In this document: positions 3,997 through 41,480 of the stretch, in pieces | How positions within the stretch are numbered: position 1 is the stretch's first letter | Layout of the letters: every line of letters begins with the position of its first letter | Source of the DNA: Patescibacteria group bacterium | GTDB lineage: Bacteria; Patescibacteriota; Minisyncoccia; Phycocordibacterales; PALSA-1337 | Direction: 5' to 3' | DNA: 64,000 nt | Assembly: GCA_038065415.1 (NCBI GenBank) | Contig: JBBTRA010000004.1 | Span: 26,092-90,091 of the forward strand | Position numbers and translations under genes: made by a program | Notes under the pieces: generated by a model | Databases searched by the model: none | Told to the model about the DNA's origin: nothing | The model's input: the letters and a program-made list of their open reading frames with translations, nothing else

Positions 3997-4156
3997 CCAC
4001 ATTCTAATAAGCCCGCAGAATCGGAGCAGATTTGACTATATTCAAGCATGTGATACTTTTGAATAACTCCATGAGCAGTTGCTTGTGAAGTGTGACTGGC
4101 GTCGTTCGCTTGCTCACCCTGTACCTATAACAATAGAAAAAAGGAAAGGATAGTAT

Positions 4157-29156: not shown

Positions 29157-29295
29157 AACTTTCTTTTGTACCTTTCTTTGCTGTTTGTTTTTGTGTTTAT
29201 TGCGTTTGGAACTAATTGCCTTTTTGCTTTTTCTGAAGGGTCGCGCCGGCAACCTGCGCGCGACCTTTTTTTTCTGCTTGGTTTTCATACGCCAA

Positions 29296-31185
29296 TCAAG
29301 TGATCCGGAGAAGTGTCATCTCCTTTCGTGAGACCACATAGAGCCCGTCGGCCCCGACAATGAGGGAATCGTCGCTTGAGACGAAAGGTTCCGTATCCGG
29401 ATACCGTTTCGCTTCGGCGATAGTTGCCCCGTCATGCTTGACCTGGATTATTCCTTGGTCAGTAGCACAGAGAAGAACATTCCCTGTTGCACACTTACCA
29501 CGGATGGTCCCAAGCCAGCTGCCATCACCGTCTTCCGCCTGAGCATGTCCTTCGACAGCTCCGGTTGGGCGGACGACAACACAGTGATTTACTCGGCGAC
29601 CATTTTCCTGAGCGCTCCACAAGAACCACGCTCGGTCGCTTGAGAAGTAACAGGACGTATCGATGAGTTGACCCGGCATAGGCGGCAGCTTGACGCTGTC
29701 GTTCATACCGCTCCGTTTGGCGTCGAATACGAAGCCTGTTCGTATTCTGCCCGCCCAGTAAAAGCCAAACCCGAAGGCTGGCCCCACCCAGAACAAGGTC
29801 TGCCCCTGCAAGATGTCACCCATGTGCTCATGTCCCATATCGGCATCGCGCAGGATCTGTCCGTTGCGGCCGAAGTAGTAATGAGACTGATTGCTGTCTA
29901 CCAATGAATGCGTGCCGTTCATATCGATGGTGAGGCGCTCTTTTTGTTTCGCCCCATCAAAAATGATGGCTGTCGCTTCCTTGGCTATGATAGTCCGATC
30001 ACCGGAGATCCGGCATCGAACTCGTGCGTCGAGCGCTCCCGTTAAGACGACCGTGCCATCTTCGCGACGATATTGATTGTTGTCATGTTCCAGATAGCGG
30101 AGTGATCCACCCTGAAACACGGCCGCAAGTATTACGCCCCGATTCATGTACACTTTTGTCGCTTTCACAGTTCCTCGTATCTCCACACTTTGTTTGACTA
30201 CGCCGATAGCTCCCGGCTGACATACCGGACAAGCGAACCGCGCGTGCTCCAGAGAGCACTTCGGACACACTTGCCAGTTAAGGCCATCGAGGAGACGCCG
30301 TGGGAATTCCCCGCGTTCATCTTTCTTGAAGACCCTGTGGAATTGCTGCAGGAGATCATCCGGGAGGATGCTCCAGTGCACTGCCGGCTTCGGATAGCGC
30401 ACTTCGGGATCGAAGACGGTTATCCGATGCAACGAACGAGCATCATGATTAACTCGATCCTTGGCGGCTTTGGGAATGTAAACACCCCCATATGGGCCGA
30501 CAAAGAGTAGAGACTGCATGAGGAGCGCCGCGAATGCATACCAATCAGAATTCTCGTTGTGAGGCTTCACCAGTAACGGTGAATCCCCTTTCGGATCGCA
30601 CAACGTCGGGTCCACGAATTTCTGCGTGAACACCGTACAGAAGAAGCGGCCGAATTGCATGGAATCCGCATCAATGAGGTGTATGGCATCGCCTTTCACA
30701 AGACCGTTGAGGTCGTTGAAGTCGCCGATGACCACTCCCGCACGATGTATGCCACCGACGGTCGCATGCAGGTCTTTGAAACCCGCAACAACAGTTGGTG
30801 TGGGGAAACCCTTGAGACGGGAATCTTTTTGACTGTACCGTATCATCAGTTCCGCCCCGGGCACGAAGTTCATCGTGTACCCGCAGATCGAACCTACACC
30901 AGGCCCGGACGCTACGGTCGCGAGCTCGACAGGAGTTACGACACGCGCAGGCAAACCTTTGGGAAACGCAGGCAGCTTCTGTTGATGCTGCTTGAGCCTC
31001 ATTTCGGCACCTTTGCGTTCGCGTTTGAGTTCGGGCGAGTCGCCCGCATAGTCAGGATGATCTGGAGTCTTGAACAGCTTCAGTATAAGACCGCTGCCCA
31101 AATCCAGAATATCGGCTTCTCCCCCTTTGCCAATGGCTTTGAGGGAACCGACGCGAACTTTCCGTTTACCAATCATGATATCCAT
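29296..31185 (-). CDS. atypical protein kinase-like protein (RIO/Bud32/KdkA-type catalytic loop) + Zn-ribbon + C-terminal beta-rich domain
   Basis: Gly-loop 'IGKGGEADI', beta3 Lys 'LKLFK', hinge 'YTMNFVPGAEL', catalytic loop 'GDFNDLN' (D-x4-N) and metal site 'LIDADS'. These are followed by 'CPKCS...CPVCQ' and about 330 aa of unassigned domain. The start is coupled to the PP2C stop (TAACCATG). Confidence 0.6.
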   Translation of the reverse strand: MDIMIGKRKVRVGSLKAIGKGGEADILDLGSGLILKLFKTPDHPDYAGDSPELKRERKGAEMRLKQHQQKLPAFPKGLPARVVTPVELATVASGPGVGSICGYTMNFVPGAELMIRYSQKDSRLKGFPTPTVVAGFKDLHATVGGIHRAGVVIGDFNDLNGLVKGDAIHLIDADSMQFGRFFCTVFTQKFVDPTLCDPKGDSPLLVKPHNENSDWYAFAALLMQSLLFVGPYGGVYIPKAAKDRVNHDARSLHRITVFDPEVRYPKPAVHWSILPDDLLQQFHRVFKKDERGEFPRRLLDGLNWQVCPKCSLEHARFACPVCQPGAIGVVKQSVEIRGTVKATKVYMNRGVILAAVFQGGSLRYLEHDNNQYRREDGTVVLTGALDARVRCRISGDRTIIAKEATAIIFDGAKQKERLTIDMNGTHSLVDSNQSHYYFGRNGQILRDADMGHEHMGDILQGQTLFWVGPAFGFGFYWAGRIRTGFVFDAKRSGMNDSVKLPPMPGQLIDTSCYFSSDRAWFLWSAQENGRRVNHCVVVRPTGAVEGHAQAEDGDGSWLGTIRGKCATGNVLLCATDQGIIQVKHDGATIAEAKRYPDTEPFVSSDDSLIVGADGLYVVSRKEMTLLRIT

Positions 31186-31187: not shown

Positions 31188-32036
31188 TTAGGCCTTTGGT
31201 TGAGGACGACGGCGGACAACGACCAGGGTCGTATCATCCGTGAGTCGTCCATGTTCTTCAGTTGTTTCCCGCGCCTTCCAATCTGTCTGGCAGGCACTGT
31301 TATTGATGAGGTTGAGGCGTCGACGGATACCTTCGGGATTCTTGAAGTATCGGTCATCTACCCAAAATTGGGACAGCGGACCCACAAGCTCCTTTCTCCC
31401 AGGCAACGTCTTACTCGCGGCGCGATCAAGATCACCTACGCCATCAGTGCCGATGAGGGCACTGGTAAGCTCAGCAGTTGGTATCGTTTTGTGAACGGTA
31501 AACCGTACGAGTTCCGGACTGATGGTGCTTTTGAGTAGGCCACCATACGCAAGGTACGGCGGCTTATTTTCCGGGAAGGGTCCTATCTGGACAACTTCCC
31601 CGTTGATCGCATAGATCCCATCTCCAATACCAATCACGTAGGTCGTCACCGGAGTGACAACGAGCGCAAGAAGTGTGAAGAGGAAGTGATCCAGCACCGC
31701 CTTGGCGCGTGAACCTCGTTCCATCTCCATAGCTAGCGGTTGGAGAGACAACAGCAGAGACATCCTGAGACCTTCGAGAAGGTCATCAAGGACGGCAGGA
31801 GTGACTGTCTGACCAGTAGCGAAAATTTGTGCCAAACGATTTACCGTAAGATGTGCTGTCAGCCGAGCACCAAGCTCGCTGTATGCACCCTCACCGCAGC
31901 CGTCCGACACAACCGCAATGGTACAATCACCCTCTTCTCGCACCACGAGGGCGTCCTGGTTGTTTTTCCATACGAACTGTTGTCGATGGTCAGTCCCCAT
32001 GATGGAGCCTGCCGCCGATTCAAACTGGTTTCCCAT
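31188..32036 (-). CDS. PP2C-family Ser/Thr phosphatase
   Basis: 'NQDALVVRE....AVVSDGCGEG' and 'IGTDGVGD' are PPM metal-binding motifs. Confidence 0.75.
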   Translation of the reverse strand: MGNQFESAAGSIMGTDHRQQFVWKNNQDALVVREEGDCTIAVVSDGCGEGAYSELGARLTAHLTVNRLAQIFATGQTVTPAVLDDLLEGLRMSLLLSLQPLAMEMERGSRAKAVLDHFLFTLLALVVTPVTTYVIGIGDGIYAINGEVVQIGPFPENKPPYLAYGGLLKSTISPELVRFTVHKTIPTAELTSALIGTDGVGDLDRAASKTLPGRKELVGPLSQFWVDDRYFKNPEGIRRRLNLINNSACQTDWKARETTEEHGRLTDDTTLVVVRRRPQPKA

Positions 32037-32279
32037 GAGATGTCCTTTCTAGTTGTGTTGTTTTATTACTATGAGATTGTCAAAAATCCCTTTTCTAATC
32101 GAGCTTTTTGCCTGCTGGCATGGGCCCAAAACCAAATATGAAGCTATCACGAAATGCAAGAAATGTCAAATACTTTCTTGACACCGCCAACATACATGAT
32201 ATGCTCTACTTAGTGTTCTAAATACACTATATACCAACCCGGTTTCTGATGCAAGTCTTTGAATAGCCTCTCCCCTGAT

Positions 32280-32308
32280 TTGGTATATGCTTCCCTTTAC
32301 TCTACAAT
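32280..32308 (+). promoter_or_regulatory. candidate promoter TTGGTA-17-TACAAT ending ~10 nt before the NrtR ATG (possible leaderless transcript)
   Basis: Hexamers were read directly. No RBS precedes ATG 32318. Confidence 0.3.
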
Positions 32309-32317
32309 TAACCTTAT

Positions 32318-33001
32318 ATGCCTGAGAAAAATATCCAAAAAGAATATTTCAATCCCGGAGTGACGGTGGATATCGCTATATTCACCATAGAGGACGGCGC
32401 ACTCAAGATGCTCGTCGTCAACAGAGCCCATGAGCCATTCAAGGGCGCCCCTGCCCTACCCGGAGGATTCATCCACGAAGGCGAAACATCTCGAGATACC
32501 GCCCTCCGCGTACTTGCAGACAAAGCGGGGGTGAGCGGAGTGTATGTGGAGCAACTCTTTACCTTCGATGCACTTGATCGTGACCCGCGCGGACAAATCA
32601 TGTCCGTAGCATATTTTGCACTTGTCCCCCGTGATCAGATTCACATTCATACCGAAGCAGCAACAGAGAATCCTTCCCTCATTACTATCAGCGCTCTCCC
32701 AAAGCTCGCCTTTGACCATCAGTCGATCGCCTCATATGCACTCAAGCGTGTACAAGACAAGATCCAGTACACGAATATCGCGTATTCACTTCTGCCAAAA
32801 TCATTTTCACTCTCCCAACTTCAGTCGGTCTATGAGACTGTTCTCGGTAAGAAGCTGGACAAACGCAATTTCCGCAAAAAATTCTTGCAGCTCGATCTGA
32901 TCCGCGCTACCAAGAAGAAGTCTTCTGGTGGAAGACAGCGCCCTGCCCTACTCTATAAGTTCATGAAAACGATGCCATCGGAGCTTAGGAGGTTCTTCTA
33001 A
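32318..33001 (+). CDS. nrtR: NrtR-family Nudix-related transcriptional regulator of NAD metabolism
   Basis: The N-terminal Nudix fold has a degenerate Nudix box (GFIHEGETSRDTALRVLADKAGV: RE to RV, EE to DK). The C-terminal wHTH carries the NrtR-typical 'LDKRNFRKKF...GGRQRPALLYKF'. It is divergent from and adjacent to the NAD genes. Confidence 0.65.
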   Translation: MPEKNIQKEYFNPGVTVDIAIFTIEDGALKMLVVNRAHEPFKGAPALPGGFIHEGETSRDTALRVLADKAGVSGVYVEQLFTFDALDRDPRGQIMSVAYFALVPRDQIHIHTEAATENPSLITISALPKLAFDHQSIASYALKRVQDKIQYTNIAYSLLPKSFSLSQLQSVYETVLGKKLDKRNFRKKFLQLDLIRATKKKSSGGRQRPALLYKFMKTMPSELRRFF

Positions 33002-33071
33002 AAAATTATCTTTCAATGCAGTAAAAAGAGCGCCTGAGAAATTTCTCAGACGCTCTTTGGCTTGACCGAAA

Positions 33072-33500
33072 TCAAACCAAGTTGGTAGCAAGCCATTCTT
33101 CGGCCTCGGCCAACGTGGCAAAGATCAGCGCCCCCGGAAAGCGTGCCTTCAAGTCTTTGCACGCCTTGATGTTGGCCTTCTCGACATGCTTGGGCATGCC
33201 GGTCGTATCGAAAACGACAACCGTCCGCTCGGAATGATCATACAGACCCATCGTCGCCTCGAGCAACGAGTAGAAGCTGCAACGATTATCGGCTTGGCCC
33301 GGATCCCCCAAGTAAAACAAGTTGAAGGCAGCATCTTTCTTCGCCTGATCTTCGCGCTGTTGTGCTGCTTCATTCCAGTCAGGGACCACGGGGTTGAACA
33401 GGCTATCTGCAGAAACACCGCGAGCAGTCAACCGAGCGATCAATCCATCACGCCAATTGTTGTTTCCGCATGTTCCGCCAAGGAATACGATCTTAGTCAT
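33072..33500 (-). CDS. flavodoxin-like fold protein, possibly nucleoside 2-deoxyribosyltransferase-like
   Basis: 'KIVFLGGTCG..W' and 'FYLGDP' resemble the NDT/Rossmann-like nucleoside-processing families. The assignment is weak. Confidence 0.3.
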   Translation of the reverse strand: MTKIVFLGGTCGNNNWRDGLIARLTARGVSADSLFNPVVPDWNEAAQQREDQAKKDAAFNLFYLGDPGQADNRCSFYSLLEATMGLYDHSERTVVVFDTTGMPKHVEKANIKACKDLKARFPGALIFATLAEAEEWLATNLV

Positions 33501-33617
33501 AGGTATGTTATTTTTGTGTTCTAGCCAACACGCGAGTGTTCTACATGAGCACCCTCGTATTGTATCGGTTCAATTTGAATAATAGCATACATAATATTAT
33601 TTGTCAATATACTCTAT

Positions 33618-33646
33618 TTGACATATCACACATAATAGTGTATAAG
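33618..33646 (+). promoter_or_regulatory. sigma-70-type promoter TTGACA-17-TATAAG (nadE)
   Basis: Read directly. It is preceded by a direct repeat of the -35-like block (tatttgtcaatat / tatttgacatat). Confidence 0.45.
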
Positions 33647-33717
33647 TAGCATCAGCAAAAAGGCCCTGATTTACAGGGAAAACCGAACATTGAGAACCAC
33701 ACAAAGGAACACATATA

Positions 33718-35670
33718 ATGAGACCAACCACAAGAAGAAAGACCTTCGGATTTGTCCGTGTCGCAGCAGTATCCCCCGCTTGCAAAGTGGCAGGAGTCGA
33801 ATATAACCACGAAGAAATCAAGAGGATGGCATCGCTGGCCTGCCTACAAGGCGCTCAGCTCATCGTCATGCCCGAACTCTGCATCACTGGCTATAGCATC
33901 CGTGATCTGGTCAACCAAGACCTCCTGCTCCGCAAGGCACAGGAGAGTCTAGAAGAACTCCTCATTTGGTCGCATGAACTGAATGCCGTGCTCGTCGTCG
34001 GACTCCCCATGGAGATCGACGGCATGCTCGTCAATATTACTGCGGTTATAGACCGCGGTTATCTGCTCGGCCTCGTCCCAAAATCGTATCTGCCCGAGTC
34101 GGGTGAATTCGAAGAGGGGCGCTGGTATCGGCCAGGCCATGACCTGCTCTCGAGTGAAATCCAGATCATGGGCAAAACGATCCCTGTCGGCGTGAACATG
34201 TTGTTCAAATCAAAGACGCTCAAGGGAGCAACGTTCGCCATCGAGACCTGTGAAGATGCTTGGGTAACAATCCCTCCGGGAGCGTTCCACGCCCTCGCAG
34301 GAGCGACGATCATCGTCAACCCATCGGCCTCTAACGAGCTCGTCGGAAAGGCGGAGTATCGTCGCGATCTGGTACGCATGCATTCTGCTACACGCATCTG
34401 CGGCTACATTTATGCCTCGTGCGGACCCGGCGAATCGACCACTGATGTGGTGTTCGGCGGACACTGTCTGATCGCAGAAAACAACATCGTGCTACAGGAA
34501 TCTGAGCTATTCCAGAAAGATGGAACGTTCATCCTGGCAGACTTCGACACTCAGAAGCTCATGCATGATCGCATGGTCTCCAAGAGCTTCGGCGAAAACA
34601 CCAGGGTGGTCAAAGGTATTCCATACCGGAAAATCGCAGTCACCCTGGAATCCTGTTTGCCTGAAAACTTGCTGCTGCGTCCGATCAACATCCATCCGTT
34701 CACTTCGGAGAAACCGGAGAAGCAGAAGGAGATCTGTGAGATCGTGTTCAGCATCCAGGTGCATGGTCTCATCAAACGACTGGAGCATAGCGGCCTCAAG
34801 AAAGTTGTCCTCGGGCTCTCGGGAGGCAAAGACTCACTGCTGGCCTATCTGGTCTGCATCAAAGCATTCAAGGCATTGAATTGGCCTCTCAGCGATATCC
34901 ATGCCATCAGCATGCCTGGTCCCGGAACCTCGAAAGAGACTCGTGACCTGGCGAAGCAACTGGGGTCGGCGACCTCCTTTGAGGAGATCGACATCACAGA
35001 AGCAACAATGCTGACCTTGAAAAACATCGGCCACGATGGAAAGACACAAGATGTCACCTACGAGAATGCTCAGGCTGGCAATCGAACGTTGACCTTATTT
35101 CGAAAAGGAAATCAGATCGGTGCGCTCGTCATCGGCACCGGTGACCTCTCGGAGATCGCCAATGGGTTCTGCACTTTCGGTGCAGATCATCTCTCGACCT
35201 ATAACGTGAATTGCGGAGTCCCCAAAGGCCTCGTGAAATACGTTCTCGGGTATGCGGCGCACACATTCGAAGGACCCACATCCATGCGCACAGCTATCGC
35301 CGGCGTCCTCAACCTCGTGGATTCGCCTGAGCTGACCCACAGTACGCCAGGCACCATCAGTCAGGTGACTGAAGACAAGGTTGGCCCGTACGAGCTTGCA
35401 GAGTTCTTTCTCTACGAGTTCGTGCGCTGGGGCAGCGAGCCTCAGAAGATTCTGTACCTGGCAGAGATGGGCTTCGGACAATACTACAAACCTGAGTTCA
35501 TCAAGAAGTGGCTCATCTCCTTCTACAAACGGTTCTTCGGCAATCAGTGGAAACGCTCGGTTGCGACAGATGGACCACAGGTCGGCTCGATATCTCTCTC
35601 CCCTCGTGGCAAGTGGCGCATGCCATCTGACGCAGAGGTGAGCATGTGGTTGGCAGAGTTGGAAGATTGA
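33718..35670 (+). CDS. nadE: glutamine-dependent NAD+ synthetase (N-terminal nitrilase/CN-hydrolase domain + NAD synthase domain)
   Basis: A CN-hydrolase N-terminal half is followed by a PP-loop 'LGLSGGKDS' in the C-terminal half. The length is 650 aa. Confidence 0.85.
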   Translation: MRPTTRRKTFGFVRVAAVSPACKVAGVEYNHEEIKRMASLACLQGAQLIVMPELCITGYSIRDLVNQDLLLRKAQESLEELLIWSHELNAVLVVGLPMEIDGMLVNITAVIDRGYLLGLVPKSYLPESGEFEEGRWYRPGHDLLSSEIQIMGKTIPVGVNMLFKSKTLKGATFAIETCEDAWVTIPPGAFHALAGATIIVNPSASNELVGKAEYRRDLVRMHSATRICGYIYASCGPGESTTDVVFGGHCLIAENNIVLQESELFQKDGTFILADFDTQKLMHDRMVSKSFGENTRVVKGIPYRKIAVTLESCLPENLLLRPINIHPFTSEKPEKQKEICEIVFSIQVHGLIKRLEHSGLKKVVLGLSGGKDSLLAYLVCIKAFKALNWPLSDIHAISMPGPGTSKETRDLAKQLGSATSFEEIDITEATMLTLKNIGHDGKTQDVTYENAQAGNRTLTLFRKGNQIGALVIGTGDLSEIANGFCTFGADHLSTYNVNCGVPKGLVKYVLGYAAHTFEGPTSMRTAIAGVLNLVDSPELTHSTPGTISQVTEDKVGPYELAEFFLYEFVRWGSEPQKILYLAEMGFGQYYKPEFIKKWLISFYKRFFGNQWKRSVATDGPQVGSISLSPRGKWRMPSDAEVSMWLAELED

Positions 35671-35722
35671 TCCTTATAGTCACGGCGCGGAATTCCCATT
35701 CCGCGCCTTTTTAATACATATA

Positions 35723-35750
35723 TTGACATATCTATATTATATGTTAATAT
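35723..35750 (+). promoter_or_regulatory. sigma-70-type promoter TTGACA-16-TAATAT (pncB)
   Basis: Read directly. An upstream terminator gcgcggaattcccattccgcgc+T5 ends the nadE unit. Confidence 0.5.
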
Positions 35751-35810
35751 ATTTTTTAGCAGTAACGATACATTTGAACACTGACAATCAACTACAACGC
35801 AAAGGAAACT

Positions 35811-37088
35811 ATGCAAACCCATGTACGGCTCCGGCCGCACTTCCCTGACGAACCAATCATCCATAGCCTGACGGATACGGACTTCTACAAGTTCCCCATG
35901 GGACAGTTCATATTCAACTACTTCAGGTATGCGAAGGTGACCTTCGGTCTCAAGAACCGTACCCTCACGATTCCGCTCGCGCGGATCATCCCCGAGGCGC
36001 AATTGCGCGAAGAGCTCGACCATGTGCGCACACTGCGGTTCAACAATACCGAGCTCCATTACCTCCGCGGGACCTGGGAATACCAGGAGCGGATGTTCCT
36101 CGAGCCCTATCTCGCCTACCTGAAGGAATATGCTCCGCCCGAATACGAACTGGAGTATCGCGGGGATGACATCATCCTCACCTTCTCTGGCGACTGGTGC
36201 GACTCGTCGCCCTGGGAGATCTACGGGCTTGAGATCATCAATGAACTCTACTTCCGCAACATGCTCAAAGGCTACACGGCATTCAACAAGGATGTCGTTC
36301 TCGCCGAAGGCAAGAAACGGCTCGCGGAGAAGATCAAGATCCTCAAGCAGAATCCTCAGATCACGTTCAGCGAATTCGGCACCCGGCGGCGCTTCAGTCG
36401 CGACTGGCAGGAATATGTGGTCGCAGCGCTCGCAGAAGAGCTCCCTCCGGAGCAATTCCGCGGCACTTCGAACACCTTCCTCGCGCAGAAATATGGACTG
36501 CTCCCGATGGGTACCAACGCCCACGAGTTGCAGATGGTGATCGCCGGGCTCATGCAGGCGACTGACCGACTGCTTCTCGATTCGCAGAACTACATGCTCG
36601 AGACCTGGTGGCGCCAATATGGCGAGCCTCTATCCATATTCCTTCCCGATACCTTCGGGACAGAATCGTTCCTCAAGATCATCTCGCCTGAGATGCTGCG
36701 GACCTGGAAAGGCTTCCGTCAGGATTCGGGCGATCCGATCGCCGAAGGCGAGCAGTGGATCAGGGCATACGAAGCCATCAAGGTCGAGCCGCGCAAGAAG
36801 ATGATGGTCCCGAGCGACGGCCTCGAGCTCGAGACTATGCTCAAGATCGAAAAGCACTTCCGCGGGCGCCTTATGACCAGCTTCGGCTGGGGCACAAACC
36901 TGACCAATGATCTGGGCCTCAAGCCTCTATCACTGGTCATCAAGGCCCAGAGCGTCAACGGAATCGGCCTGGTCAAGCTCTCGAACAACCCGGCCAAAGC
37001 AATGGGCAAGAAGGAGGACGTTGAACGCTACATGCGCGTCTTCGGATATCAGAATACCGAGCACGCCCAAACGGCCTGCAAGTACTGA
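35811..37088 (+). CDS. pncB: nicotinate phosphoribosyltransferase
   Basis: 'SLTDTDFYKFPMGQ' matches the PncB N-terminal signature. The length is 425 aa. Confidence 0.75.
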   Translation: MQTHVRLRPHFPDEPIIHSLTDTDFYKFPMGQFIFNYFRYAKVTFGLKNRTLTIPLARIIPEAQLREELDHVRTLRFNNTELHYLRGTWEYQERMFLEPYLAYLKEYAPPEYELEYRGDDIILTFSGDWCDSSPWEIYGLEIINELYFRNMLKGYTAFNKDVVLAEGKKRLAEKIKILKQNPQITFSEFGTRRRFSRDWQEYVVAALAEELPPEQFRGTSNTFLAQKYGLLPMGTNAHELQMVIAGLMQATDRLLLDSQNYMLETWWRQYGEPLSIFLPDTFGTESFLKIISPEMLRTWKGFRQDSGDPIAEGEQWIRAYEAIKVEPRKKMMVPSDGLELETMLKIEKHFRGRLMTSFGWGTNLTNDLGLKPLSLVIKAQSVNGIGLVKLSNNPAKAMGKKEDVERYMRVFGYQNTEHAQTACKY

Positions 37089-37158
37089 TTGATCGAACAC
37101 TACACGACGGACATTCACATGTCCGTCTTTTTAATGCCTAGAATGAGCAGCCCAGGTA

Positions 37159-37187
37159 TTGACATACTGAATATTATGTAGTAGTAT
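37159..37187 (+). promoter_or_regulatory. sigma-70-type promoter TTGACA-17-TAGTAT with shared 'TGTAGTAG' element
   Basis: Read directly. The same TTGACA-N12-TGTAGTAG spacing recurs at 38388. Confidence 0.45.
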
Positions 37188-37222
37188 CATTTTAGGTAAA
37201 ACCCTGCACACTGAAAGGAACC

Positions 37223-37738
37223 ATGACCCCAGAGATACTCCTCGGATCGAACAGTATCCACAAGCTCGAAGCGGTACGCAAAGCCTGTAAACAGGTCGGT
37301 CTAGAGACAACCGTCACTGGACTGAAGACTGCATCGGGACAGAACGAACAACCAGTCGGATGGGATGAGACGTACGCAGGCGCATTCGCACGGGCTTCTG
37401 CCGCACAAAAAGCGGACCCCGAAGCCATCGCCATCGGCATTGAAAGTGGCATCATGCGCTTCAACGAAAAAATGCCGATCACGCTCGACATCGCGATCAT
37501 CGTCATCCTGACACCCGACTGTCGAGAGATAGTGAGCTCATCTCCTGGCATACGCTTCCCCGAAGAATGCGTGCTCACAGCCCAAACACGTGGCTTCGAC
37601 AAATGCACCGTGGGATCAGTGATTCAAGAACGCTTCGGCGGAGACGCTACTGATCCTCACTGGATACTGAGCAATGGAAAAGTGCGTCGCGAGGCAACTC
37701 TCGTGAATGCCTTGGAAATAGCCCTCCATCAAATCTGA
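37223..37738 (+). CDS. YjjX-like non-canonical purine NTP phosphatase (ITPase/XTPase family)
   Basis: 'QPVGWDETYAGAFARA', 'IGIESGI' and 'DIAIIVI' parallel E. coli YjjX. Confidence 0.45.
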   Translation: MTPEILLGSNSIHKLEAVRKACKQVGLETTVTGLKTASGQNEQPVGWDETYAGAFARASAAQKADPEAIAIGIESGIMRFNEKMPITLDIAIIVILTPDCREIVSSSPGIRFPEECVLTAQTRGFDKCTVGSVIQERFGGDATDPHWILSNGKVRREATLVNALEIALHQI

Positions 37739-37776
37739 TCAAGTAAGAAGCCCCAACCATTCGGTTGGGGCTGTTT

Positions 37777-38271
37777 TTATTTTTGAGCACGTCCCGCGAG
37801 ACTGGCGATAATAGCCGATGTCGACGAGTGATCGATCTGATCGTGGAGGATCATGACCTTCTTCGCATGCTTCTTGCCAACAATGTCCGCCTCTTTACCC
37901 ATGAATGCGTCATTCTTGAAGATGACGTCGGGCTTGAAGATCTTGGCGGCCTTGCCGAAGTCGTCCAAGCCATTCATGACGAAAGCGAATGTAACCGGTC
38001 TGAGCGCATCCACCATGATGACCCGGTGGAAATCTGGCACGATAGGCCTGGTCGGGCCCTTGATCTGTCGAACCAGTTCGTCGGAATCGACCCCCACGAT
38101 GAGAATGTCACAATTCTGTCGGCAGCGGATGAAAAAGCTGAAATGGTAGAAGTGCACCAGATCGAAACATCCCGAGGCAAGACCGACGGTGATCTTCCCC
38201 TTCTTTCTCAGGGCAGCGATGCGATCCTGCACGACTTCGACAGTGTCGGGTACGTTGATATTGAAGACCAT
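37777..38271 (-). CDS. cytidylyltransferase-family nucleotidyltransferase (HxGH-type; RfaE domain II/TagD-like)
   Basis: 'VGLASGCFDLVHFYH' is the (T/H)xGH motif. Confidence 0.5.
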   Translation of the reverse strand: MVFNINVPDTVEVVQDRIAALRKKGKITVGLASGCFDLVHFYHFSFFIRCRQNCDILIVGVDSDELVRQIKGPTRPIVPDFHRVIMVDALRPVTFAFVMNGLDDFGKAAKIFKPDVIFKNDAFMGKEADIVGKKHAKKVMILHDQIDHSSTSAIIASLAGRAQK

Positions 38272-38387
38272 ATTCGAATTTCCTTTTGGTTGTGCTGTTA
38301 TTCCTCTTTTACAATAAAGCTAATTTATACACTACTATGATATTTATCATATGTCAATACCATGTCTGAACCCACTCCCCAGGATAT

Positions 38388-38416
38388 TGACATAACCTAT
38401 ATTTTGTAGTAGGGTC
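38388..38416 (+). promoter_or_regulatory. sigma-70-type promoter TTGACA-17-TAGGGT with shared 'TGTAGTAG' element (prs)
   Basis: Read directly. Confidence 0.4.
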
Positions 38417-38473
38417 TCTATCAGTTCATGCGGCCCAAAACAACAGCCGACTTCGGTTCATTTACAGCAACAT

Positions 38474-39388
38474 ATGAAAAAAACTCACTTAGTCACCCAT
38501 ACTCAGCATGCTCGCCATCTCATGGGAAACAGCCTCGGCCTCGCCGAATTGCTTCCTGCCGGGACGCGCATCGTGAAGCCAACGCCCAACAAGGAAGGTA
38601 AGTTCAACTTCCCCGACGGAGAGATCTATCTCCGACTGCCACACCTCAAGGATGTCGGGAACATCACGATCGTGCACAGCGGGTATCCCAATCCCAATGA
38701 CGGCCTGATCGAGCTCTACATGATGCTCGACATCATCAGGGGACACAAAAACGCATTGGGGAAAATTCACATCGTATTCGCCTCGTTCCCGTACGCCCGA
38801 CAAGACAACAGCTACTATGACGGCGAATTGAACGCAGCGCGCGAGCTCCTTCGCACGCTCATAGACAAAGGTGCGAGTTCGTTCAGTGTCATCGATGCTC
38901 ATTTCGCAGGCGAATCCTGGACACGGAGCTTGCCCATCGAAAACGTCAGCATGACGGAAAATCTCATGCAATACGCTCAACTCTCCCATCCAGGAATAGT
39001 GTTCATGACGCCTGACGCTGGATCGAGGCGCCGTACCAGGATCAAGTCGGGAACGACCAAGACGCGGACCAACTCGTTCGAAGTCGAAGTCAAAAGCGAC
39101 GACATGTTCCGCGACCAAGTCAGTGGCAAGATCGTCGCCGTAGTCGACGATCTCCTGAGCACCGGCATGACGCTGCAGCGCTTCCTCACAGAAGCGAAGC
39201 GAAGCGGCGCCAAGAAGGTGGCGGCGCTCGTCACCCACGGGGTCAATCCGGCCGGCATCGAGCTGACCAAGTCAACATTCGACGGCGGACTCTTCATGAC
39301 GAACACCATCGATCGCCCTGAAGCGAACATAGACGCCACCCAGACTGTCTGGGGGCTCATCCAAAAGGACGTCCTGCATGCACACTAA
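38474..39388 (+). CDS. prs: ribose-phosphate pyrophosphokinase (PRPP synthetase family), divergent N-terminus
   Basis: 'FPDGEIYLRL', 'NPNDGLIELYMMLDII', 'FPYARQDN' and the PRPP-binding 'IVAVVDDLLSTGMTL' are present. The canonical N-terminal 'FSGSS' segment is absent. Confidence 0.7.
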   Translation: MKKTHLVTHTQHARHLMGNSLGLAELLPAGTRIVKPTPNKEGKFNFPDGEIYLRLPHLKDVGNITIVHSGYPNPNDGLIELYMMLDIIRGHKNALGKIHIVFASFPYARQDNSYYDGELNAARELLRTLIDKGASSFSVIDAHFAGESWTRSLPIENVSMTENLMQYAQLSHPGIVFMTPDAGSRRRTRIKSGTTKTRTNSFEVEVKSDDMFRDQVSGKIVAVVDDLLSTGMTLQRFLTEAKRSGAKKVAALVTHGVNPAGIELTKSTFDGGLFMTNTIDRPEANIDATQTVWGLIQKDVLHAH

Positions 39389-39899
39389 GGCGAGCATCGA
39401 CTGTCCTCTTCCTACATACGTACACCCCAAGTGGCGCAACCGGAGAAGGTCGACAGTACGATTCGGATTCGATCTGCACGGAGTGGTCGACACCAACCCC
39501 GTGGGATTCCGCAAAATGATGGCCGCGCTCATCGCCAGTGGCTGTGAAGTGCACATTATCACTGGGGCAACCTGGGAACGGGAGCGTCCGACGCTCAAGA
39601 GGCTCCGGATACCCTTCACCCACTTCTTCTCGATTACCAATCATCATATGACAATCGGCACGAAGGTAGTTTGGGCGGATGCCGACAACCCTCATATCGA
39701 CCGGCATTTGTGGGATGAAACCAAGGCGATCTATTGCAAAGTCCATCGGATGACGATGCACTTCGATGATTCGGATCTCTACGGCCTGTATTTCCAAACT
39801 CCGTACATCCGCTTCTTCGCGAAGGACAGCGACCGCATCTTGAAAATGCATATCGTCCCTCCGAAAATCAAAGCGAATTGTCGTAAGAAAAAGAAGTGA
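39378..39899 (+). CDS. hypothetical protein, possible HAD-like hydrolase/nucleotidase
   Basis: 'FGFDLHGVV' (non-canonical motif I, D-x-H) and 'HFDDSD'. It overlaps prs by 11 nt. Confidence 0.3.
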   Translation: MHTKASIDCPLPTYVHPKWRNRRRSTVRFGFDLHGVVDTNPVGFRKMMAALIASGCEVHIITGATWERERPTLKRLRIPFTHFFSITNHHMTIGTKVVWADADNPHIDRHLWDETKAIYCKVHRMTMHFDDSDLYGLYFQTPYIRFFAKDSDRILKMHIVPPKIKANCRKKKK

Positions 39900-39993
39900 T
39901 GGACACACCGCATGCGAAAGTATGCGGTTTTTTATTACCGGGTAACAAAATAAAAAGGCCTTCCGAAGAAGACCTTGAAGGAACCGAGCATAT

Positions 39994-40773
39994 TCAGAAC
40001 AAGCCTTGCAATTTGGCAAGCGCATACGCGATGAAGAATTTCCCATCACGAGTGCGGTACGGCACCTGTTCAAGCGGAAGGATCAGTAGGCAGATCATCT
40101 CGCCCTCATCCTTGTTACCCGTCAACTTGCCCTGCAATTCTTTGATCACATCTCCAGAAACCTCTTTGCGAAAGAGGAAGAACCGCATACCCTCATCGCA
40201 TGCTCCAGGTGAGAGTGCAATCGGTTTTTCGAAAGGGATCAGCTGCGTGCATCCCACCGGATCAGGAGTGAGCGGAATGAGCTCTGCAGGATCCAATCTC
40301 ATGCCGACCTCCTCTTCGAATTCTCTGGCCGCGACACCGATGAAGTTGCTGCTTTGGTCGAGCATACCCGCGGGAATCTCAACCAACTCAGGATCACCGA
40401 CTGGCAACCGTACTTGACTGGTAAGGATGACAAACTTCTCATCCGAGCCCAAGATAGTCAATATCGGGAGGATCGCCACCGAATCACCCCTCAGGAATAC
40501 AACATCTGGCAAGATTCGTTTGCCATCTTTGCCGTGTGCTTCCACCGACAGTTTTGCGAAGATCGGTTTGTTATCGGCCTTGAAGTCGACCGAGACCATA
40601 GTCACCGACTTGATGGTTATGTCGGGATGGATCGAATCAATCCAACGCTGGAACAATGCGGACCCGCCAAAGATCGAGACTTCGGGCGAATCGATATGCG
40701 AATAGCCATGGAGTTTGAACTGGTTTCCGTTGCAAACATATGTGTTGCTCATGTAAATGTGCCTTTCTTGCAA
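39994..40773 (-). CDS. NUDIX hydrolase, ADP-ribose pyrophosphatase-like
   Basis: Nudix box 'GMLDQSSNFIGVAAREFEEEVGM'. It has its own TTGACT-17-TATACA promoter on the minus strand at about 40785..40815. Confidence 0.6.
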   Translation of the reverse strand: MQERHIYMSNTYVCNGNQFKLHGYSHIDSPEVSIFGGSALFQRWIDSIHPDITIKSVTMVSVDFKADNKPIFAKLSVEAHGKDGKRILPDVVFLRGDSVAILPILTILGSDEKFVILTSQVRLPVGDPELVEIPAGMLDQSSNFIGVAAREFEEEVGMRLDPAELIPLTPDPVGCTQLIPFEKPIALSPGACDEGMRFFLFRKEVSGDVIKELQGKLTGNKDEGEMICLLILPLEQVPYRTRDGKFFIAYALAKLQGLF

Positions 40774-40829
40774 ACATGTATATCACATTTATATACGATA
40801 GTCAACAGCTACCCACCCTTTGCGCTATC

Positions 40830-41351
40830 CTATATCTTTTTGAATTTCTCCCACTTCTCCTTGAACAGGCTCTGTAATTCCGGCAGTATAGTTTGGTCTA
40901 TCAACCCTTCAAGCGGCCTACCAGCAATGAGACAATCGCGTACTTCGGTAGCCGAGGTCTTCACAGATGTACCATCAAATCTATTGAGTATAGTGCAGTC
41001 TCTGCCGTCATCGAGAAAAAAGCGGATGTCTTCCTCACAGCCTCCAAAGAAAGTTACTTGAGCGGGATCCATACCTGCGACACGGATAATATCGTCGAGC
41101 GCAGCAAGCCATTCCCCGTCATTGTGATAGTCAGGTAAACCGACAAGTTTGATGCCAGGAAATAATTTCTGGATGAATTGCTTGCGCTCGTGATATGAGA
41201 AAAAATGACGGAGCGAAAATGGTGCATTTGAGCTTCCGATCACCAAGAAGCAGTTGTCGAGACCATATCTCTCTATCATCTGGCGCACAACAATCACATG
41301 ACCGTTGTGAACGGGATTGAACCTGCCGACATATATGGCTGACTTCTTCAT
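40830..41351 (-). CDS. nadM: nicotinamide/nicotinate mononucleotide adenylyltransferase, archaeal NadM type
   Basis: 'AIYVGRFNPVHNGH' is the GRFQPFHxGH motif, with 'SATEVR' downstream. The start is taken at MKKSAIYVGRF. Confidence 0.7.
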   Translation of the reverse strand: MKKSAIYVGRFNPVHNGHVIVVRQMIERYGLDNCFLVIGSSNAPFSLRHFFSYHERKQFIQKLFPGIKLVGLPDYHNDGEWLAALDDIIRVAGMDPAQVTFFGGCEEDIRFFLDDGRDCTILNRFDGTSVKTSATEVRDCLIAGRPLEGLIDQTILPELQSLFKEKWEKFKKI

Positions 41352-41480
41352 ATGCGACAGATTGTAACATGCTGACGCTAGAGAACGCAGTGTCTTAGAG
41401 ATCATAGATATATTGACATAGCGCCATTTAAATGCTATCGTTTTACCGGATAAACCTTTCAAAATTCAACCCATTGAAAA

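What the first reader, a model, noticed from the sequence alone, without database searches (positions are those of the whole stretch)
32280..41462. NrtR-centred NAD salvage/recycling island with split NadM/Nudix, divergent Prs and several uncharacterised nucleotide enzymes
A Nudix-related regulator with a catalytically degenerate Nudix box (RE to RV, EE to DK) and the NrtR C-terminal 'KRNFRKKF...RPALLYKF' wHTH heads a 9-kb block. Downstream lie a flavodoxin-fold NDT-like protein, nadE, pncB, a YjjX-like ITPase, an HxGH cytidylyltransferase, a Prs lacking the canonical N-terminal 'FSGSS' segment, a HAD-like protein with an odd D-x-H motif I, a Nudix ADPR pyrophosphatase and an archaeal-type NadM. 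NadM and the Nudix gene are adjacent but separately promoted. In some bacteria they are fused.

Together with the PncA-like gene 4 kb upstream, this encodes a complete Preiss-Handler salvage route (PncA, PncB, NadM, NadE) plus ADP-ribose recycling (Nudix, Prs). The YjjX-like, NDT-like, cytidylyltransferase and HAD-like members are not standard NrtR-regulon genes and could point to an additional nucleoside or ADP-ribose-derived metabolite. Most genes carry their own strong promoters; no single shared operator is evident.
Basis: partly seen in the sequence, partly recalled or inferred. Interest (0 to 1): 0.65.

Follow-up and report, generated by a model that had tools for sequence, protein, structure and literature searches.

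The report
NAD salvage cluster beside NrtR repressor
A candidate-phyla (Patescibacteria) bacterium keeps its NAD-recycling genes next to a Nudix-type repressor (NrtR), but the repressor's single conserved binding site sits only at its own promoter, beside a kinase/phosphatase-wrapped nicotinamidase operon, and not in front of the recycling genes.

Summary
The gene calls are essentially right. The window holds NrtR (degenerate Nudix box RVLADK plus NrtR wHTH), glutamine-dependent NadE, PncB, a DUF84 NTPase, an RfaE-II-like nucleotidyltransferase, a class-III-like Prs, a HAD-like protein with DxH, an ADPR-type Nudix and NadM.

The 'NrtR-centred island' reading is only partly right. I found the operator: a 21-bp palindrome, TTAGTGTTCTAAATACACTAT (32210-32230), with the published GT-N7-AC core. 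It is invariant in five CPR relatives. It is the only strong site in 64 kb. It lies at +1 of the distal nrtR promoter, in the region shared with a divergent operon. nadE, pncB, prs-like/HAD-like, nudix and nadM each have their own promoter, most have a terminator, and none has an operator.

The 'PncA-like' gene is a nicotinamidase-like enzyme by fold, catalytic triad and metal ligands. It is the third gene of a PP2C / kinase-Zn-ribbon / nicotinamidase / vWA-like operon. This cassette is the NrtR partner conserved across phyla, and elsewhere the operator lies inside its promoter.

DUF84 and the nucleotidyltransferase are a lineage-specific insertion. The HAD-like family is fused elsewhere to NrtR, NMNAT and Macro-NADAR.

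The parts
27210..28019 (-). vWA-like protein (269 aa), last gene of the divergent operon
   Evidence: MIDAS-type D66-x-S68-x-S70 ... T136 ... D172 is invariant in 7 orthologues. There is no Pfam, PDB or PADLOC hit, so the vWA assignment rests on motifs only. The gene is co-located with PP2C, kinase and iso-like genes in L001, L003, L076, L081, L082, L087 and L088 among others.
28056..29288 (-). nicotinamidase-like amidohydrolase (410 aa; residues 1-48 are a Lys-rich, low-confidence extension)
   Evidence: The AF2 model (pLDDT 72) has A. baumannii nicotinamidase 2wta as top PDB match (E 9.4e-5, prob 1.0), followed by isochorismatase-like hydrolases. D106, K279, C331 and D154/H156/H163 are invariant in 31 homologues. 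More than 8000 homologues exist, about 60% identical in cyanobacteria, named isochorismatase or nicotinamidase-related amidase by their sources. The gene sits between nrtR and pncB in L100 and L114.
29296..31185 (-). protein-kinase-like protein with central Zn ribbon and a C-terminal beta-rich domain (629 aa)
   Evidence: It matches the kinase domain of class IV lanthionine synthetase at 3.1e-5, and Bud32 weakly. In a profile search of PDB, 21 of 23 weak hits are Ser/Thr kinases, and Nop10 Zn ribbon matches at 294-322. GKGGEA, LKxFK, GDFNDLN, DxDS and C307xxC310...C319PxC322 are invariant. The orthologue in L087 carries a precomputed weak Pkinase hit.
31188..32036 (-). PP2C-type phosphatase (282 aa), first gene of the divergent operon
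   Evidence: PF13672 PP2C_2, 6.4e-19.
32141..32169 (-). inferred promoter of the PP2C operon (TTGACA-17-TAGCTT)
   Evidence: Read from the sequence. The -35 and the position of the -10 are conserved in window, L081, L082 and L001 (alignment A2). The consensus scan does not report it because the -10 is weak.
32178..32205 (+). distal nrtR promoter P1 (TTGACA-16-TATGCT, TG-extended)
   Evidence: 10 of 12 matches. Conserved in A2.
32210..32230 (.). NrtR operator, 21-bp palindrome TTAGTGT-TCTAAAT-ACACTAT
   Evidence: One mismatch to the perfect palindrome. PWM score is 27.2 bits, against a training median of 24.6; the next best site in 64 kb scores 12.8. The site is invariant in five loci while the flanks diverge. 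It has the GT-N7-AC core reported for NrtR sites (PMC2330246).
32280..32308 (+). proximal promoter-like site P2 (TTGGTA-17-TACAAT), 9 nt before the nrtR ATG
   Evidence: TACAAT is conserved in A2. The site is not overlapped by the operator.
32318..33001 (+). nrtR (227 aa)
33072..33500 (-). nucleoside 2-deoxyribosyltransferase-like protein (142 aa); variable slot
   Evidence: PF15891, 33.5 bits against a cutoff of 30. The gene in the same slot of L081 and L082 is only 25% identical, and the L082 gene is LDcluster4-like. Its own promoter lies at 33579-33607 on the minus strand.
33618..33646 (+). nadE promoter (TTGACA-17-TATAAG) overlapping a conserved left operator half-site ATAGTGT (33635-33641)
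   Evidence: Alignment A8. The full-site PWM score is only 0.7 bits.
33718..35670 (+). nadE, glutamine-dependent NAD synthetase; terminator at 35684-35707
   Evidence: NF002730, 722 bits against a cutoff of 473. Terminator.
35811..37088 (+). pncB; promoter at 35723-35750, terminator at 37106-37127
   Evidence: NF003704, 419.5 bits against a cutoff of 379. Promoter and terminator.
37223..37738 (+). DUF84 / YjjX-like NTPase (lineage-specific insertion)
   Evidence: PF01931, 7.7e-24. Absent from L081, L082 and L001. Bidirectional terminator at 37749-37772.
37777..38271 (-). RfaE-domain-II-like nucleotidyltransferase (lineage-specific insertion)
   Evidence: TIGR02199, 75 bits against a cutoff of 181; PF01467; phrog_7878. 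Absent from relatives.
38474..39388 (+). class-III-like ribose-phosphate pyrophosphokinase homologue; promoter TTGACA 38387-38392 / TAGGGT 38410-38415
   Evidence: The R5P loop VDDLLSTGMT resembles IIDDIISTGGT of S. solfataricus PRPP synthase 4twb. Conserved in L081, L082 and L001.
39378..39899 (+). HAD-like protein with D-x-H motif I, overlapping prs-like by 11 nt; terminator at 39907-39928
39994..40773 (-). Nudix hydrolase of the ADP-sugar/ADPR pyrophosphatase type (259 aa)
   Evidence: PF00293. NUDT5 matches at 6e-6. REFEEE is intact.
40830..41351 (-). NadM-type NMN/NaMN adenylyltransferase (173 aa from M38; the mechanical ORF runs to 41462)
   Evidence: Relatives start at the residue equivalent to M38.

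Best explanation
This is a genuine NAD salvage and ADP-ribose recycling neighbourhood in a Patescibacteria (CPR) genome. It lies beside a genuine NrtR-family repressor, but it is not a single NrtR regulon.

Shown:
- NrtR has one high-scoring, phylogenetically invariant 21-bp palindromic operator (32210-32230).
- The operator lies immediately downstream of the -10 of the distal nrtR promoter. This is the 281-bp region nrtR shares with the divergent PP2C / kinase-Zn-ribbon / nicotinamidase-like / vWA-like operon.
- nadE, pncB, prs-like+HAD-like, nudix and nadM are separate units with their own sigma-70-type promoters. Most have their own terminators. None has an operator.
- Across phyla, the partner that stays with this NrtR clade is the PP2C(-kinase)-nicotinamidase(-vWA) cassette. 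In a cyanobacterium and a myxobacterium the operator lies inside that cassette's promoter.

Inferred mechanism:
- The NrtR dimer occludes the start site of P1.
- ADP-ribose, the product of NAD cleavage, binds the catalytically dead Nudix domain and releases NrtR. The effector is inferred from family precedent.
- This raises nrtR expression and, by analogy with other lineages, possibly expression of the nicotinamidase cassette.
- Nicotinamide is deamidated to nicotinate.
- PncB uses PRPP made by the Prs-like enzyme to form NaMN.
- NadM adenylates NaMN.
- NadE amidates the product to NAD.
- The Nudix enzyme splits ADP-ribose into AMP and ribose-5-phosphate, which feeds Prs.
- The kinase/PP2C/vWA trio is proposed to act as a phospho-switch on, or around, the nicotinamidase.
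- The HAD-like DxH protein is proposed to be a phosphatase acting on a ribosyl-nucleotide of this network.
For: - Family assignments.
- Organism and relatives: (a 100% identical protein from a Patescibacteria MAG).
- Operator: with the GT-N7-AC core from PMC2330246.
- Clade-wide motif: TTAGTGT-N7-ACACTAA recurs in 83 loci from many phyla. Over 2.05 Mb of loci its density is 0.054 sites per kb. A site lies within 300 bp upstream of PP2C in 10 of 15 loci, NrtR in 33 of 89, NadE in 6 of 22, and Prs-like, Nudix and NadM in 0 of 13.
- Operator inside the cassette promoter: between -35 and -10 in L086, and overlapping the promoter in L076. In L122 one site lies between nrtR and PP2C in nrtR-PP2C-kinase-iso-vWA-pncB.
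- Classical arrangement: nrtR-iso-pncB operons occur in L100 and L114.
- Monocistronic layout.
- Synteny: L081 has vWA-iso-kinase-PP2C <> nrtR, small gene, nadE, pncB, prs-like, HAD-like, nudix, nadM.
- HAD-like family: fused to NUDIX+NrtR_WHD, to an NMNAT-type domain and to Macro+NADAR. A phage homologue lies 650 bp from natV.
Against: - In this lineage the operator centre is about 86 bp upstream of the inferred start of the PP2C operon. Direct repression of the cassette here is therefore not shown.
- A second, operator-free promoter-like site (32280-32308) could keep nrtR on.
- The closest solved homologue is the arabinose-responsive BtAraR, so the ADPR effector is inferred, not tested.
- The NCBIfam NrtR equivalog scores 161 bits against a cutoff of 400.
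- The vWA assignment rests on motifs only.
- No NadD was seen, so the route requires NadM to accept NaMN.
- Promoters are consensus matches only.
- A left half-site conserved at the nadE -10 leaves room for weak NrtR binding there.
Confidence: 0.62

Rival explanations
1. The whole 9-kb block (plus the upstream PncA-like gene) is one NrtR regulon, with NrtR binding weak or divergent sites in each promoter.
For: - Sister CPR lineages carry full operators upstream of nadE or pncB: L003, L008, L041, L053, L057 and L068.
- The nadE promoter here keeps a conserved left half-site, ATAGTGT.
- The genes are functionally coherent and syntenic in L081 and L082.
Against: - The best PWM score in any island promoter other than nrtR is 2.8 bits. 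The weakest training site scores 14.0.
- At up to 3 mismatches there is only one site per locus in window, L081, L082 and L001.
- No site lies upstream of Prs-like, Nudix or NadM homologues in any locus.
- The conserved promoter blocks are -35/-10 elements and a -16 TG-type motif.
- The half-site coincides with the -10 region.
Confidence: 0.12
2. The NrtR + PP2C / kinase / nicotinamidase-like / vWA block is a TerY-P-type conflict (anti-phage or counter-defence) module. It senses NAD cleavage through ADP-ribose and is not housekeeping salvage. The adjacent salvage genes are bystanders.
For: - The architecture matches the TerY-P triad: TerY-like vWA, PP2C, and Ser/Thr kinase with a C-terminal Zn ribbon (PMC11090510). 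TerY-P-like modules were reported there as stand-alone defence systems.
- The cassette occurs at 44-53% identity in Corallococcus (L076) and in other phyla, which suggests horizontal spread.
- The NrtR effector ADPR is the product of NADase defence systems (10.1101/2024.02.11.579819).
Against: - No PADLOC model matches any of the proteins, even at E<=10.
- In L122 the cassette is directly followed by pncB.
- The same enzyme family forms plain nrtR-iso-pncB operons in L100 and L114. This points to metabolism.
- Most members of the enzyme family are stand-alone genes (65 loci).
- No nuclease or other toxic effector is present.
Confidence: 0.15
3. The Prs-like / HAD-like pair is not a PRPP synthase pair. 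It would be a NARP1-like ADP-ribose reactivation step: pyrophosphorylation of ADPR to ADPR-PP, with PncB or another transferase rebuilding a dinucleotide directly.
For: - Prs-like is about as close to a phage Adps encoded next to Namat (26% identity, 52 bits) as it is to solved PRPP synthases (57 bits).
- It falls just below the TIGR01251 cutoff and has a divergent N-terminus.
- Its translationally coupled partner belongs to a family fused to ADPR-processing Macro-NADAR domains and to NrtR.
Against: - The acceptor phosphate loop, VDDLLSTGMT, matches class III PRPP synthase 4twb (IIDDIISTGGT). It does not match the Adps loops DDICDGGRT or C215-D216-x-A218-A219-S220 (PMC13586617).
- 97% of Adps genes sit next to a Namat/Nampt homologue. 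None is present here; the neighbour is a standard PncB that scores above its NCBIfam cutoff.
- A dedicated ADPR pyrophosphatase gene is present, which fits the route ADPR to R5P to PRPP.
Confidence: 0.1

Closest known systems
NrtR regulons of NAD metabolism (Rodionov et al. 2008, PMC2330246; SoNrtR 3gz5)
   Same: - Nudix-like effector domain with a broken Nudix signature, followed by a C-terminal wHTH.
- A 21-bp palindromic operator with a GT-N7-AC core at or just after the promoter.
- Chromosomal linkage to pncB, nadE, prs and nadM.
- Operons of nrtR-pncA-pncB type exist in relatives (L100, L114).
   Different: - Here only the nrtR promoter carries the operator, and the salvage genes are operator-free.
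- The conserved partner is a PP2C/kinase/vWA-wrapped nicotinamidase-like gene. This does not appear among the named regulon members in that paper. Two unnamed targets there, nrtX-nrtY, could not be checked because the supplement is not held.
- The organism is a CPR bacterium. No paper in the searchable library links NrtR with Patescibacteria.
BtAraR (Bacteroides L-arabinose repressor of the NrtR family, 5bs6; PMC4666351)
   Same: - It is the best solved-structure match (1.2e-43).
- The pentose-contacting residues have counterparts that are invariant here: R36, R88/R91 and H134.
   Different: The genomic context here and in relatives is NAD metabolism, not arabinose utilisation. The operators of this clade precede nadE, pncB and the nicotinamidase cassette.
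TerY-P triad (vWA TerY + PP2C + Ser/Thr kinase-Zn ribbon; Anantharaman et al. 2012 as summarised in PMC11090510)
   Same: - The same three components lie in one operon.
- The kinase carries a CxxC...CxxC ribbon after the catalytic domain.
- A MIDAS-type DxSxS...T...D motif is present in the vWA-like protein.
   Different: - An enzyme gene (nicotinamidase-like) is inserted between kinase and vWA.
- The module is under an NrtR operator and in places is contiguous with pncB.
- PADLOC TerY-P models do not match.
- The kinase has a further ~300-aa C-terminal domain.
Phage NAD reconstitution pathways NARP1 (Adps+Namat) and NARP2 (Nampt+Nmnat)
   Same: - A Prs-family enzyme lies next to a phosphoribosyltransferase.
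- NMNAT and ADPR pyrophosphatase functions are adjacent.
- Homologues of the HAD-like protein occur in KVP40-like phages near natV.
   Different: - The transferase is PncB (nicotinate), not Nampt/Namat.
- The Prs-like acceptor loop is of PRPP-synthase type.
- NadM and Nudix are separate genes.
- The context is chromosomal, in a CPR genome.
Nicotinamidase PncA (isochorismatase-like hydrolases; A. baumannii 2wta)
   Same: - Same fold.
- Asp-Lys-Cys triad, Asp/His/His metal site and the KG...YS motif are conserved.
- Genomic position between nrtR and pncB in some loci.
   Different: - About 350-410 aa instead of about 200, with a large insertion and N-terminal additions.
- Not recognised by Pfam or NCBIfam.
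- Frequently flanked by kinase, PP2C and vWA genes.

Membership tests
[quoted passage not shown] | N-terminal Nudix-fold domain | tested here: met
   PF00293 at 7.2e-9. Full-length matches to 5bs6 (1.2e-43) and 3gz5 (1.6e-30).
[quoted passage not shown] | C-terminal NrtR-type winged helix DNA-binding domain | tested here: met
   PF21906 NrtR_WHD at 2.9e-24, residues 156-215.
[quoted passage not shown] | 21-bp palindromic operator with GT-N7-AC core near regulated genes | tested here: met
   TTAGTGTTCTAAATACACTAT at 32210-32230. It is invariant in five loci and the motif recurs across 83 loci. The core consensus comes from PMC2330246.
[quoted passage not shown] | DNA binding relieved by ADP-ribose | not testable with these tools
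   Needs EMSA with and without ADPR. Residues that contact the pentose in BtAraR/SoNrtR are conserved, but this does not identify the ligand.
[quoted passage not shown] | NCBIfam equivalog NF050029 score above its cutoff | tested here: not met
   161.5 bits against a cutoff of 400. The protein is a family member by domains, not an equivalog of the model's seed group.
TerY-P triad | PP2C phosphatase gene in the operon | tested here: met
   PF13672 at 6.4e-19.
TerY-P triad | Ser/Thr kinase fused to a C-terminal zinc ribbon | tested here: met
   The kinase domain of LanL matches at 3.1e-5. Weak PDB profile hits are consistently kinases. Kinase motifs and CxxC...CPxC are invariant.
TerY-P triad | TerY-like vWA domain with MIDAS motif | tested here: inconclusive
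   DxSxS...T...D is invariant.
TerY-P triad | match to the defence-system HMMs (PADLOC) | tested here: not met
   No hit at E<=10.
Nicotinamidase (PncA) | isochorismatase-like fold with Asp-Lys-Cys triad and Asp/His/His metal site | tested here: met
   Foldseek top hit 2wta at 9.4e-5. D106, K279, C331, D154, H156 and H163 are invariant. Mapping these residues to catalytic roles is my inference.
Nicotinamidase (PncA) | recognised by the Pfam Isochorismatase model | tested here: not met
   No Pfam family at E<=5.
Nicotinamidase (PncA) | nicotinamide deamidase activity | not testable with these tools
   Context support only: nrtR-iso-pncB operons in L100 and L114.
PRPP synthase (ribose-phosphate pyrophosphokinase) | Pribosyltran_N plus PRTase domains with an R5P-binding DD..(D/S)TGxT loop and a K-x-R catalytic loop | tested here: met
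   PF13793 at 39 bits against a cutoff of 25. VDDLLSTGMT aligns with IIDDIISTGGT of 4twb. FPDGE, RQD, DAH, PDAG and TKTR are present.
PRPP synthase (ribose-phosphate pyrophosphokinase) | score above TIGR01251 / equivalog cutoffs | tested here: not met
   104.3 bits against 113, and 98.5 against 296. The N-terminal ~40 residues do not align.
Adps (ADPR-PP synthetase, NARP1) | remodelled PP loop and adjacent Namat/Nampt gene | tested here: not met
   The loop is of PRPP-synthase type. There is no Nampt homologue; the neighbour is PncB.
HAD superfamily phosphatases | motif I DxDx(T/V) | tested here: not met
   The family invariant is D32-L-H34-G-V.
HAD superfamily phosphatases | Rossmannoid HAD fold with motifs II-IV | tested here: inconclusive
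   The model has pLDDT 82.6. PDB hits are mostly C0 HAD phosphatases but only at E 0.01-0.1. BFVD hits to 'HAD-like domain' proteins reach 6e-4 to 1e-2. T62, K116 and DDSD are conserved.
NadM-type NMN adenylyltransferase | (H/T)xGH nucleotidyltransferase motif and similarity to archaeal NMNAT | tested here: met
   GRFNPVHNGH; PF01467. The best NCBIfam hits are NadM and NadM-Nudix models, but all fall below their cutoffs, for example NF002243 at 41 bits against 127.
ADP-ribose pyrophosphatase (Nudix) | intact REUxEE Nudix box and similarity to ADPRase/NUDT5 | tested here: met
   REFEEEVGM. NUDT5 matches at 6e-6 and bacterial ADPRases at 1e-3. Substrate was not tested.

The most novel reading that the evidence does not exclude
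Two linked readings remain open.

1. An ADP-ribose-sensing NrtR controls a nicotinamidase that is gated by its own dedicated vWA / PP2C / kinase phospho-switch. This would be a TerY-P-like signalling triad recruited to NAD salvage. It would be spread across CPR bacteria, cyanobacteria, myxobacteria and others, and would act as a regulated valve that restarts NAD synthesis after NAD cleavage.

2. Alongside it, a previously undescribed HAD-like 'DxH' enzyme family acts on a phosphorylated ribosyl-nucleotide of the NAD/ADP-ribose network. The family has about 800 clusters at 50% identity. Members are fused elsewhere to NrtR, NMNAT or Macro-NADAR domains, and some occur in jumbo phages. Here the gene is translationally coupled to a dedicated PRPP synthase.
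Probability: 0.3. Interest if true: 0.7.

Novelty: new variant of a known kind. Interest (0 to 1): 0.5.

Why it matters
CPR/Patescibacteria are thought to depend on hosts for most cofactors. A complete, conserved nicotinamide-to-NAD route with ADP-ribose recycling shows what they must import (niacin or nicotinamide) and what they make themselves.

The finding also revises a simple picture of NrtR. In this large clade the regulator's most faithful partner is a nicotinamidase-like gene set within a kinase/phosphatase/vWA operon, not the biosynthetic genes. That suggests post-translational control of the first salvage step. Such control has no described precedent in the papers I could search.

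The HAD-like DxH family is a concrete candidate for a missing enzyme in NAD/ADP-ribose metabolism. The same chemistry is contested between phages and NAD-depleting defence systems.

Tried and rejected
- **Shared 'TGTAGTAG' / 'TATTATGT' promoter strings.** I first took these for a possible operator. Alignments with relatives show they are -16/-10 promoter elements, and they score below 3 bits with the operator PWM.
- **Second operator at 4150-4170.** It scores 12.8 bits, below the weakest training site. About 1.6 sites with 3 or fewer mismatches are expected by chance. Rejected as probably chance.
- **Defence-system membership.** PADLOC gave nothing.
- **Riboswitch or other RNA elements.** Rfam found only tRNA-Asn.
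- **Adps identity for Prs-like.** Rejected on loop sequence and the missing Namat.
- **vWA confirmation.** Attempts by PDB sequence, PDB profile, Pfam at E<=5 and plasmid tblastn all failed.
- **Literature checks that failed.** The Rodionov supplement, needed to identify nrtX/nrtY, and the Anantharaman 2012 paper are not held.
- **Exact-sequence lookup of the window NrtR.** It found nothing, although a 100% identical cluster exists.

Full report

Profile searches confirm them:
- nrtR, 32318-33001: NrtR_WHD 2.9e-24 and NUDIX 7e-9.
- A nucleoside-deoxyribosyltransferase-like protein, 33072-33500: PF15891 at 33.5 bits against a cutoff of 30.
- Glutamine-dependent NadE: NF002730, 722 bits.
- PncB: 419 bits, above its cutoff.
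- A DUF84/YjjX-type NTPase.
- An RfaE-domain-II-like nucleotidyltransferase.
- A Prs homologue just below the TIGR01251 cutoff (104 against 113 bits).
- A 173-aa protein with no family.
- A Nudix protein closest to NUDT5 and ADPR pyrophosphatases.
- A NadM-like adenylyltransferase.

The closest solved structures are BtAraR (1.2e-43) and SoNrtR (1.6e-30). An identical protein is on record from a Patescibacteria MAG. The nearest relatives are Paceibacteria-type CPR bacteria.

**Conservation of the block.** The closest relatives with long contigs are L081 (NrtR 69% identical), L082 (67%) and L001 (63%). L081 shows the full order, which the others largely share: vWA-like, 365-aa 'isochorismatase', 629-aa protein and PP2C on one strand. 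On the other side come nrtR, a small reverse gene, nadE, pncB, prs-like, the 172-aa protein, nudix and nadM.

Three points follow:
- DUF84 and the RfaE-like gene are missing from all three relatives. They are an insertion between pncB and prs-like. A DUF84 domain is fused to a PPAT-type nucleotidyltransferase in archaeal PRK01170 proteins, so the pair is probably its own unit.
- The NDT-like gene is not orthologous to the small gene in the same slot of L081 and L082 (25% identity). The L082 gene is LDcluster4-like.
- NadM in relatives starts at the residue equivalent to M38, so the gene probably ends at 41351.

**The operator.** Rodionov et al. (PMC2330246) report that most NrtR sites are 21-bp palindromes with a GT-N7-AC core. 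The nrtR upstream region contains TTAGTGT-TCTAAAT-ACACTAT at 32210-32230.

The same 21-mer occurs at the same relative place in L081, L082, L001 and L003, with at most one spacer change. In the alignment of the five intergenic regions it is an invariant block in otherwise diverged sequence.

The motif TTAGTGT-N7-ACACTAA recurs next to nrtR in most of 83 loci from many phyla. I built a PWM from 96 such sites. It scores the window site at 27.2 bits, against a training median of 24.6 and a minimum of 14.0. The next best site in 64 kb scores 12.8 (4150, probably chance). The best site in the nadE, pncB, DUF84, prs, nudix and nadM promoter regions scores 2.8 or less. The refutation criterion 'no conserved palindromic operator shared among these promoters' is met for the island as a regulon. 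The regulator itself is nonetheless clearly an NrtR with a clear operator.

**Promoter anatomy.** One search finds TTGACA-16-TATGCT at 32178-32205, so the operator begins about 5 nt after the -10 and covers the start site. A second promoter-like site, TTGGTA-17-TACAAT (32280-32308), lies 9 nt before the ATG. It is not covered by the operator.

On the other strand a conserved TTGACA (32164-32169), with a -10 seventeen bases on, is the likely promoter of the PP2C operon (my reading). The operator centre is about 86 bp upstream of that inferred start. Direct repression of the operon in this lineage is therefore not shown.

Each salvage gene has a near-consensus promoter. Terminators follow nadE, pncB, DUF84/RfaE-like (bidirectional), the 173-aa gene and nudix. 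The nadE promoter keeps the left half-site ATAGTGT in all four close relatives, but the right half has decayed and the conserved block overlaps the -10. Sister lineages have full sites upstream of nadE or pncB: L003, L008, L041, L053, L057 and L068. I read this as regulon contraction in the window's lineage.

**What NrtR stays with.** The four genes divergent from nrtR are co-located with NrtR in several loci:
- The CPR loci L001, L003, L081 and L082.
- L013, as far as the contig goes.
- L076, a Corallococcus (Myxococcota), at 44-53% identity. There the order is nrtR-PP2C-629-iso-vWA on one strand.

In L076 two operators lie between nrtR and PP2C. The first starts right after a TTGACT -35. In the cyanobacterial locus L086 (nrtR <> PP2C-iso) the operator fills the spacer between TTGACT and TATAGT of the PP2C promoter. 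In metagenomic L122 the order is nrtR-PP2C-kinase-iso-vWA-pncB, with a site between nrtR and PP2C. L100 and L114 are plain nrtR-iso-pncB operons.

Over 2.05 Mb of collected loci the motif density is 0.054 per kb. A site lies within 300 bp upstream of PP2C in 10 of 15 cases, NrtR in 33 of 89 and NadE in 6 of 22. For Prs-like, Nudix and NadM homologues the count is 0 of 13. Stand-alone copies of the enzyme gene rarely carry a site (2 of 65).

**Identity of the cassette proteins.**
- The 410-aa protein has no Pfam or NCBIfam match. It belongs to a family of more than 8000 proteins, about 60% identical in cyanobacteria, that sources call isochorismatase or nicotinamidase-related amidase. Its AF2 model best matches A. 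baumannii nicotinamidase 2wta (9.4e-5), then other isochorismatase-like hydrolases. Asp106, Lys279 (in a KG...YS motif), Cys331 and Asp154/His156/His163 are invariant. This is the nicotinamidase triad and metal site; mapping the residues to these roles is my inference.
- The 629-aa protein matches the kinase domain of LanL (3.1e-5). Its weak PDB hits are consistently Ser/Thr kinases. It has invariant kinase motifs and a CxxC...CPxC ribbon.
- The 282-aa protein is PP2C.
- The 269-aa protein has an invariant DxSxS...T...D motif but no profile or structure support.

This matches the description of the TerY-P triad (PMC11090510). However, PADLOC models do not match, and here the triad encloses an enzyme gene. 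I found no paper in the searchable library that links NrtR with PP2C/vWA modules or with Patescibacteria.

**Prs-like and the HAD-like protein.**
- Prs-like aligns best with class III archaeal PRPP synthases (4twb, 1.3e-14). It shares their DD..STGxT ribose-5-phosphate loop and has FPDGE, RQD, DxH, PDxG and a K-x-R loop.
- It is 26% identical to a phage Adps encoded next to Namat. It lacks the Adps-type loop described in PMC13586617 and has no Nampt neighbour. I therefore favour PRPP synthesis.
- The 173-aa gene overlaps it by 11 nt and is conserved in L081 and L001. The family has 804 representatives at E<=1e-3.
- The family invariants are D-x-H-G-V, T62, K116 and DDSD.
- The model is confident (pLDDT 82.6). 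It resembles HAD phosphatases only weakly in PDB, and HAD-like phage proteins at 6e-4 to 1e-2.
- Members are fused to NUDIX+NrtR_WHD, to NMNAT-type nucleotidyltransferase and to Macro+NADAR. Homologues occur in huge phages and in KVP40-like phages, 650 bp from natV. The link to NAD/ADP-ribose chemistry is therefore solid. The reaction is unknown.

**Verdict.** The region is an NAD salvage and ADPR-recycling neighbourhood beside an autoregulated NrtR. The regulator's conserved target is the nicotinamidase cassette rather than the 9-kb block. NrtR regulons, TerY-P triads and NAD salvage are all known; the combination is a new variant. The HAD-like family is an uncharacterised lead.

Noticed in passing
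window 32070-32088: TATGAGATTGTCAAAAATC lies between the inferred PP2C-operon promoter and the PP2C start codon. It is conserved in window, L081, L082 and L001. It contains a TTGACA on the minus strand, but no -10 follows at a usable spacing. Its function is unexplained.
   Followed up: partly
window 32303-32308 and 41362-41367: A TACAAT hexamer sits 9-10 nt upstream of the ATG of nrtR and of nadM (at M38). Neither has a Shine-Dalgarno sequence, whereas nadE, pncB and DUF84 have AAGGA. This suggests leaderless or very short-leader transcripts for these two genes.
   Followed up: no
window 4150-4170: A weak operator-like palindrome, ATAGTATATGGTATACACCAA (12.8 bits, 3 mismatches), overlaps the start of a 115-aa ORF (4157-4504). 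It scores below every training site and is within chance expectation.
   Followed up: partly
window 37089-38473: The DUF84 NTPase and the RfaE-II-like nucleotidyltransferase form a convergent pair sharing a bidirectional terminator (37749-37772). The pair is inserted between pncB and prs-like only in this lineage. The two domains are fused in archaeal PRK01170-type proteins.
   Followed up: partly
window 35723-35750 and the aligned regions of L081, L082, L001: The spacer of the pncB promoter (TCTATATTATATGTTAAT) and a downstream block (CAGCA..GT...ATTTG.ACAC) are conserved well beyond the -35 and -10. They could bind another factor or form a 5' leader element. They are not NrtR-like.
   Followed up: no
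window 28056-28199 (residues 1-48 of the nicotinamidase-like protein): A Lys/Arg-rich N-terminal extension (MKTKQKKKVARRLPARPFRKSKK...) has very low model confidence. Most homologues lack it and start near residue 45-55. The true start may be internal.
   Followed up: no
window 32237-32246; alignment A2 columns 236-244: A short (A/G)NGCAAGT block, ATGCAAGT in the window and about 10 nt downstream of the operator, is conserved in the nrtR leader of the four close relatives. Its meaning is unknown.
   Followed up: no
window 41481-43051: Divergent from nadM lie a 188-aa protein with no family and a TPM-domain protein with a Cys/Gly-rich tail. They are not conserved next to nadM in L081 or L082.
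   Followed up: no
proteins P0293, P0296, P0289, P0303, P0345 (not in the window): Fusion proteins join the HAD-like DxH domain to a full NrtR, to an NMNAT-type domain, or to Macro+NADAR. P0256-P0258 appear to carry two copies of the domain.
   Followed up: partly
tool behaviour: The exact-sequence lookup found no record for the window's NrtR. The homology search nevertheless returned a 100% identical, full-length cluster seen on three contigs, the longest 243 kb.
   Followed up: no
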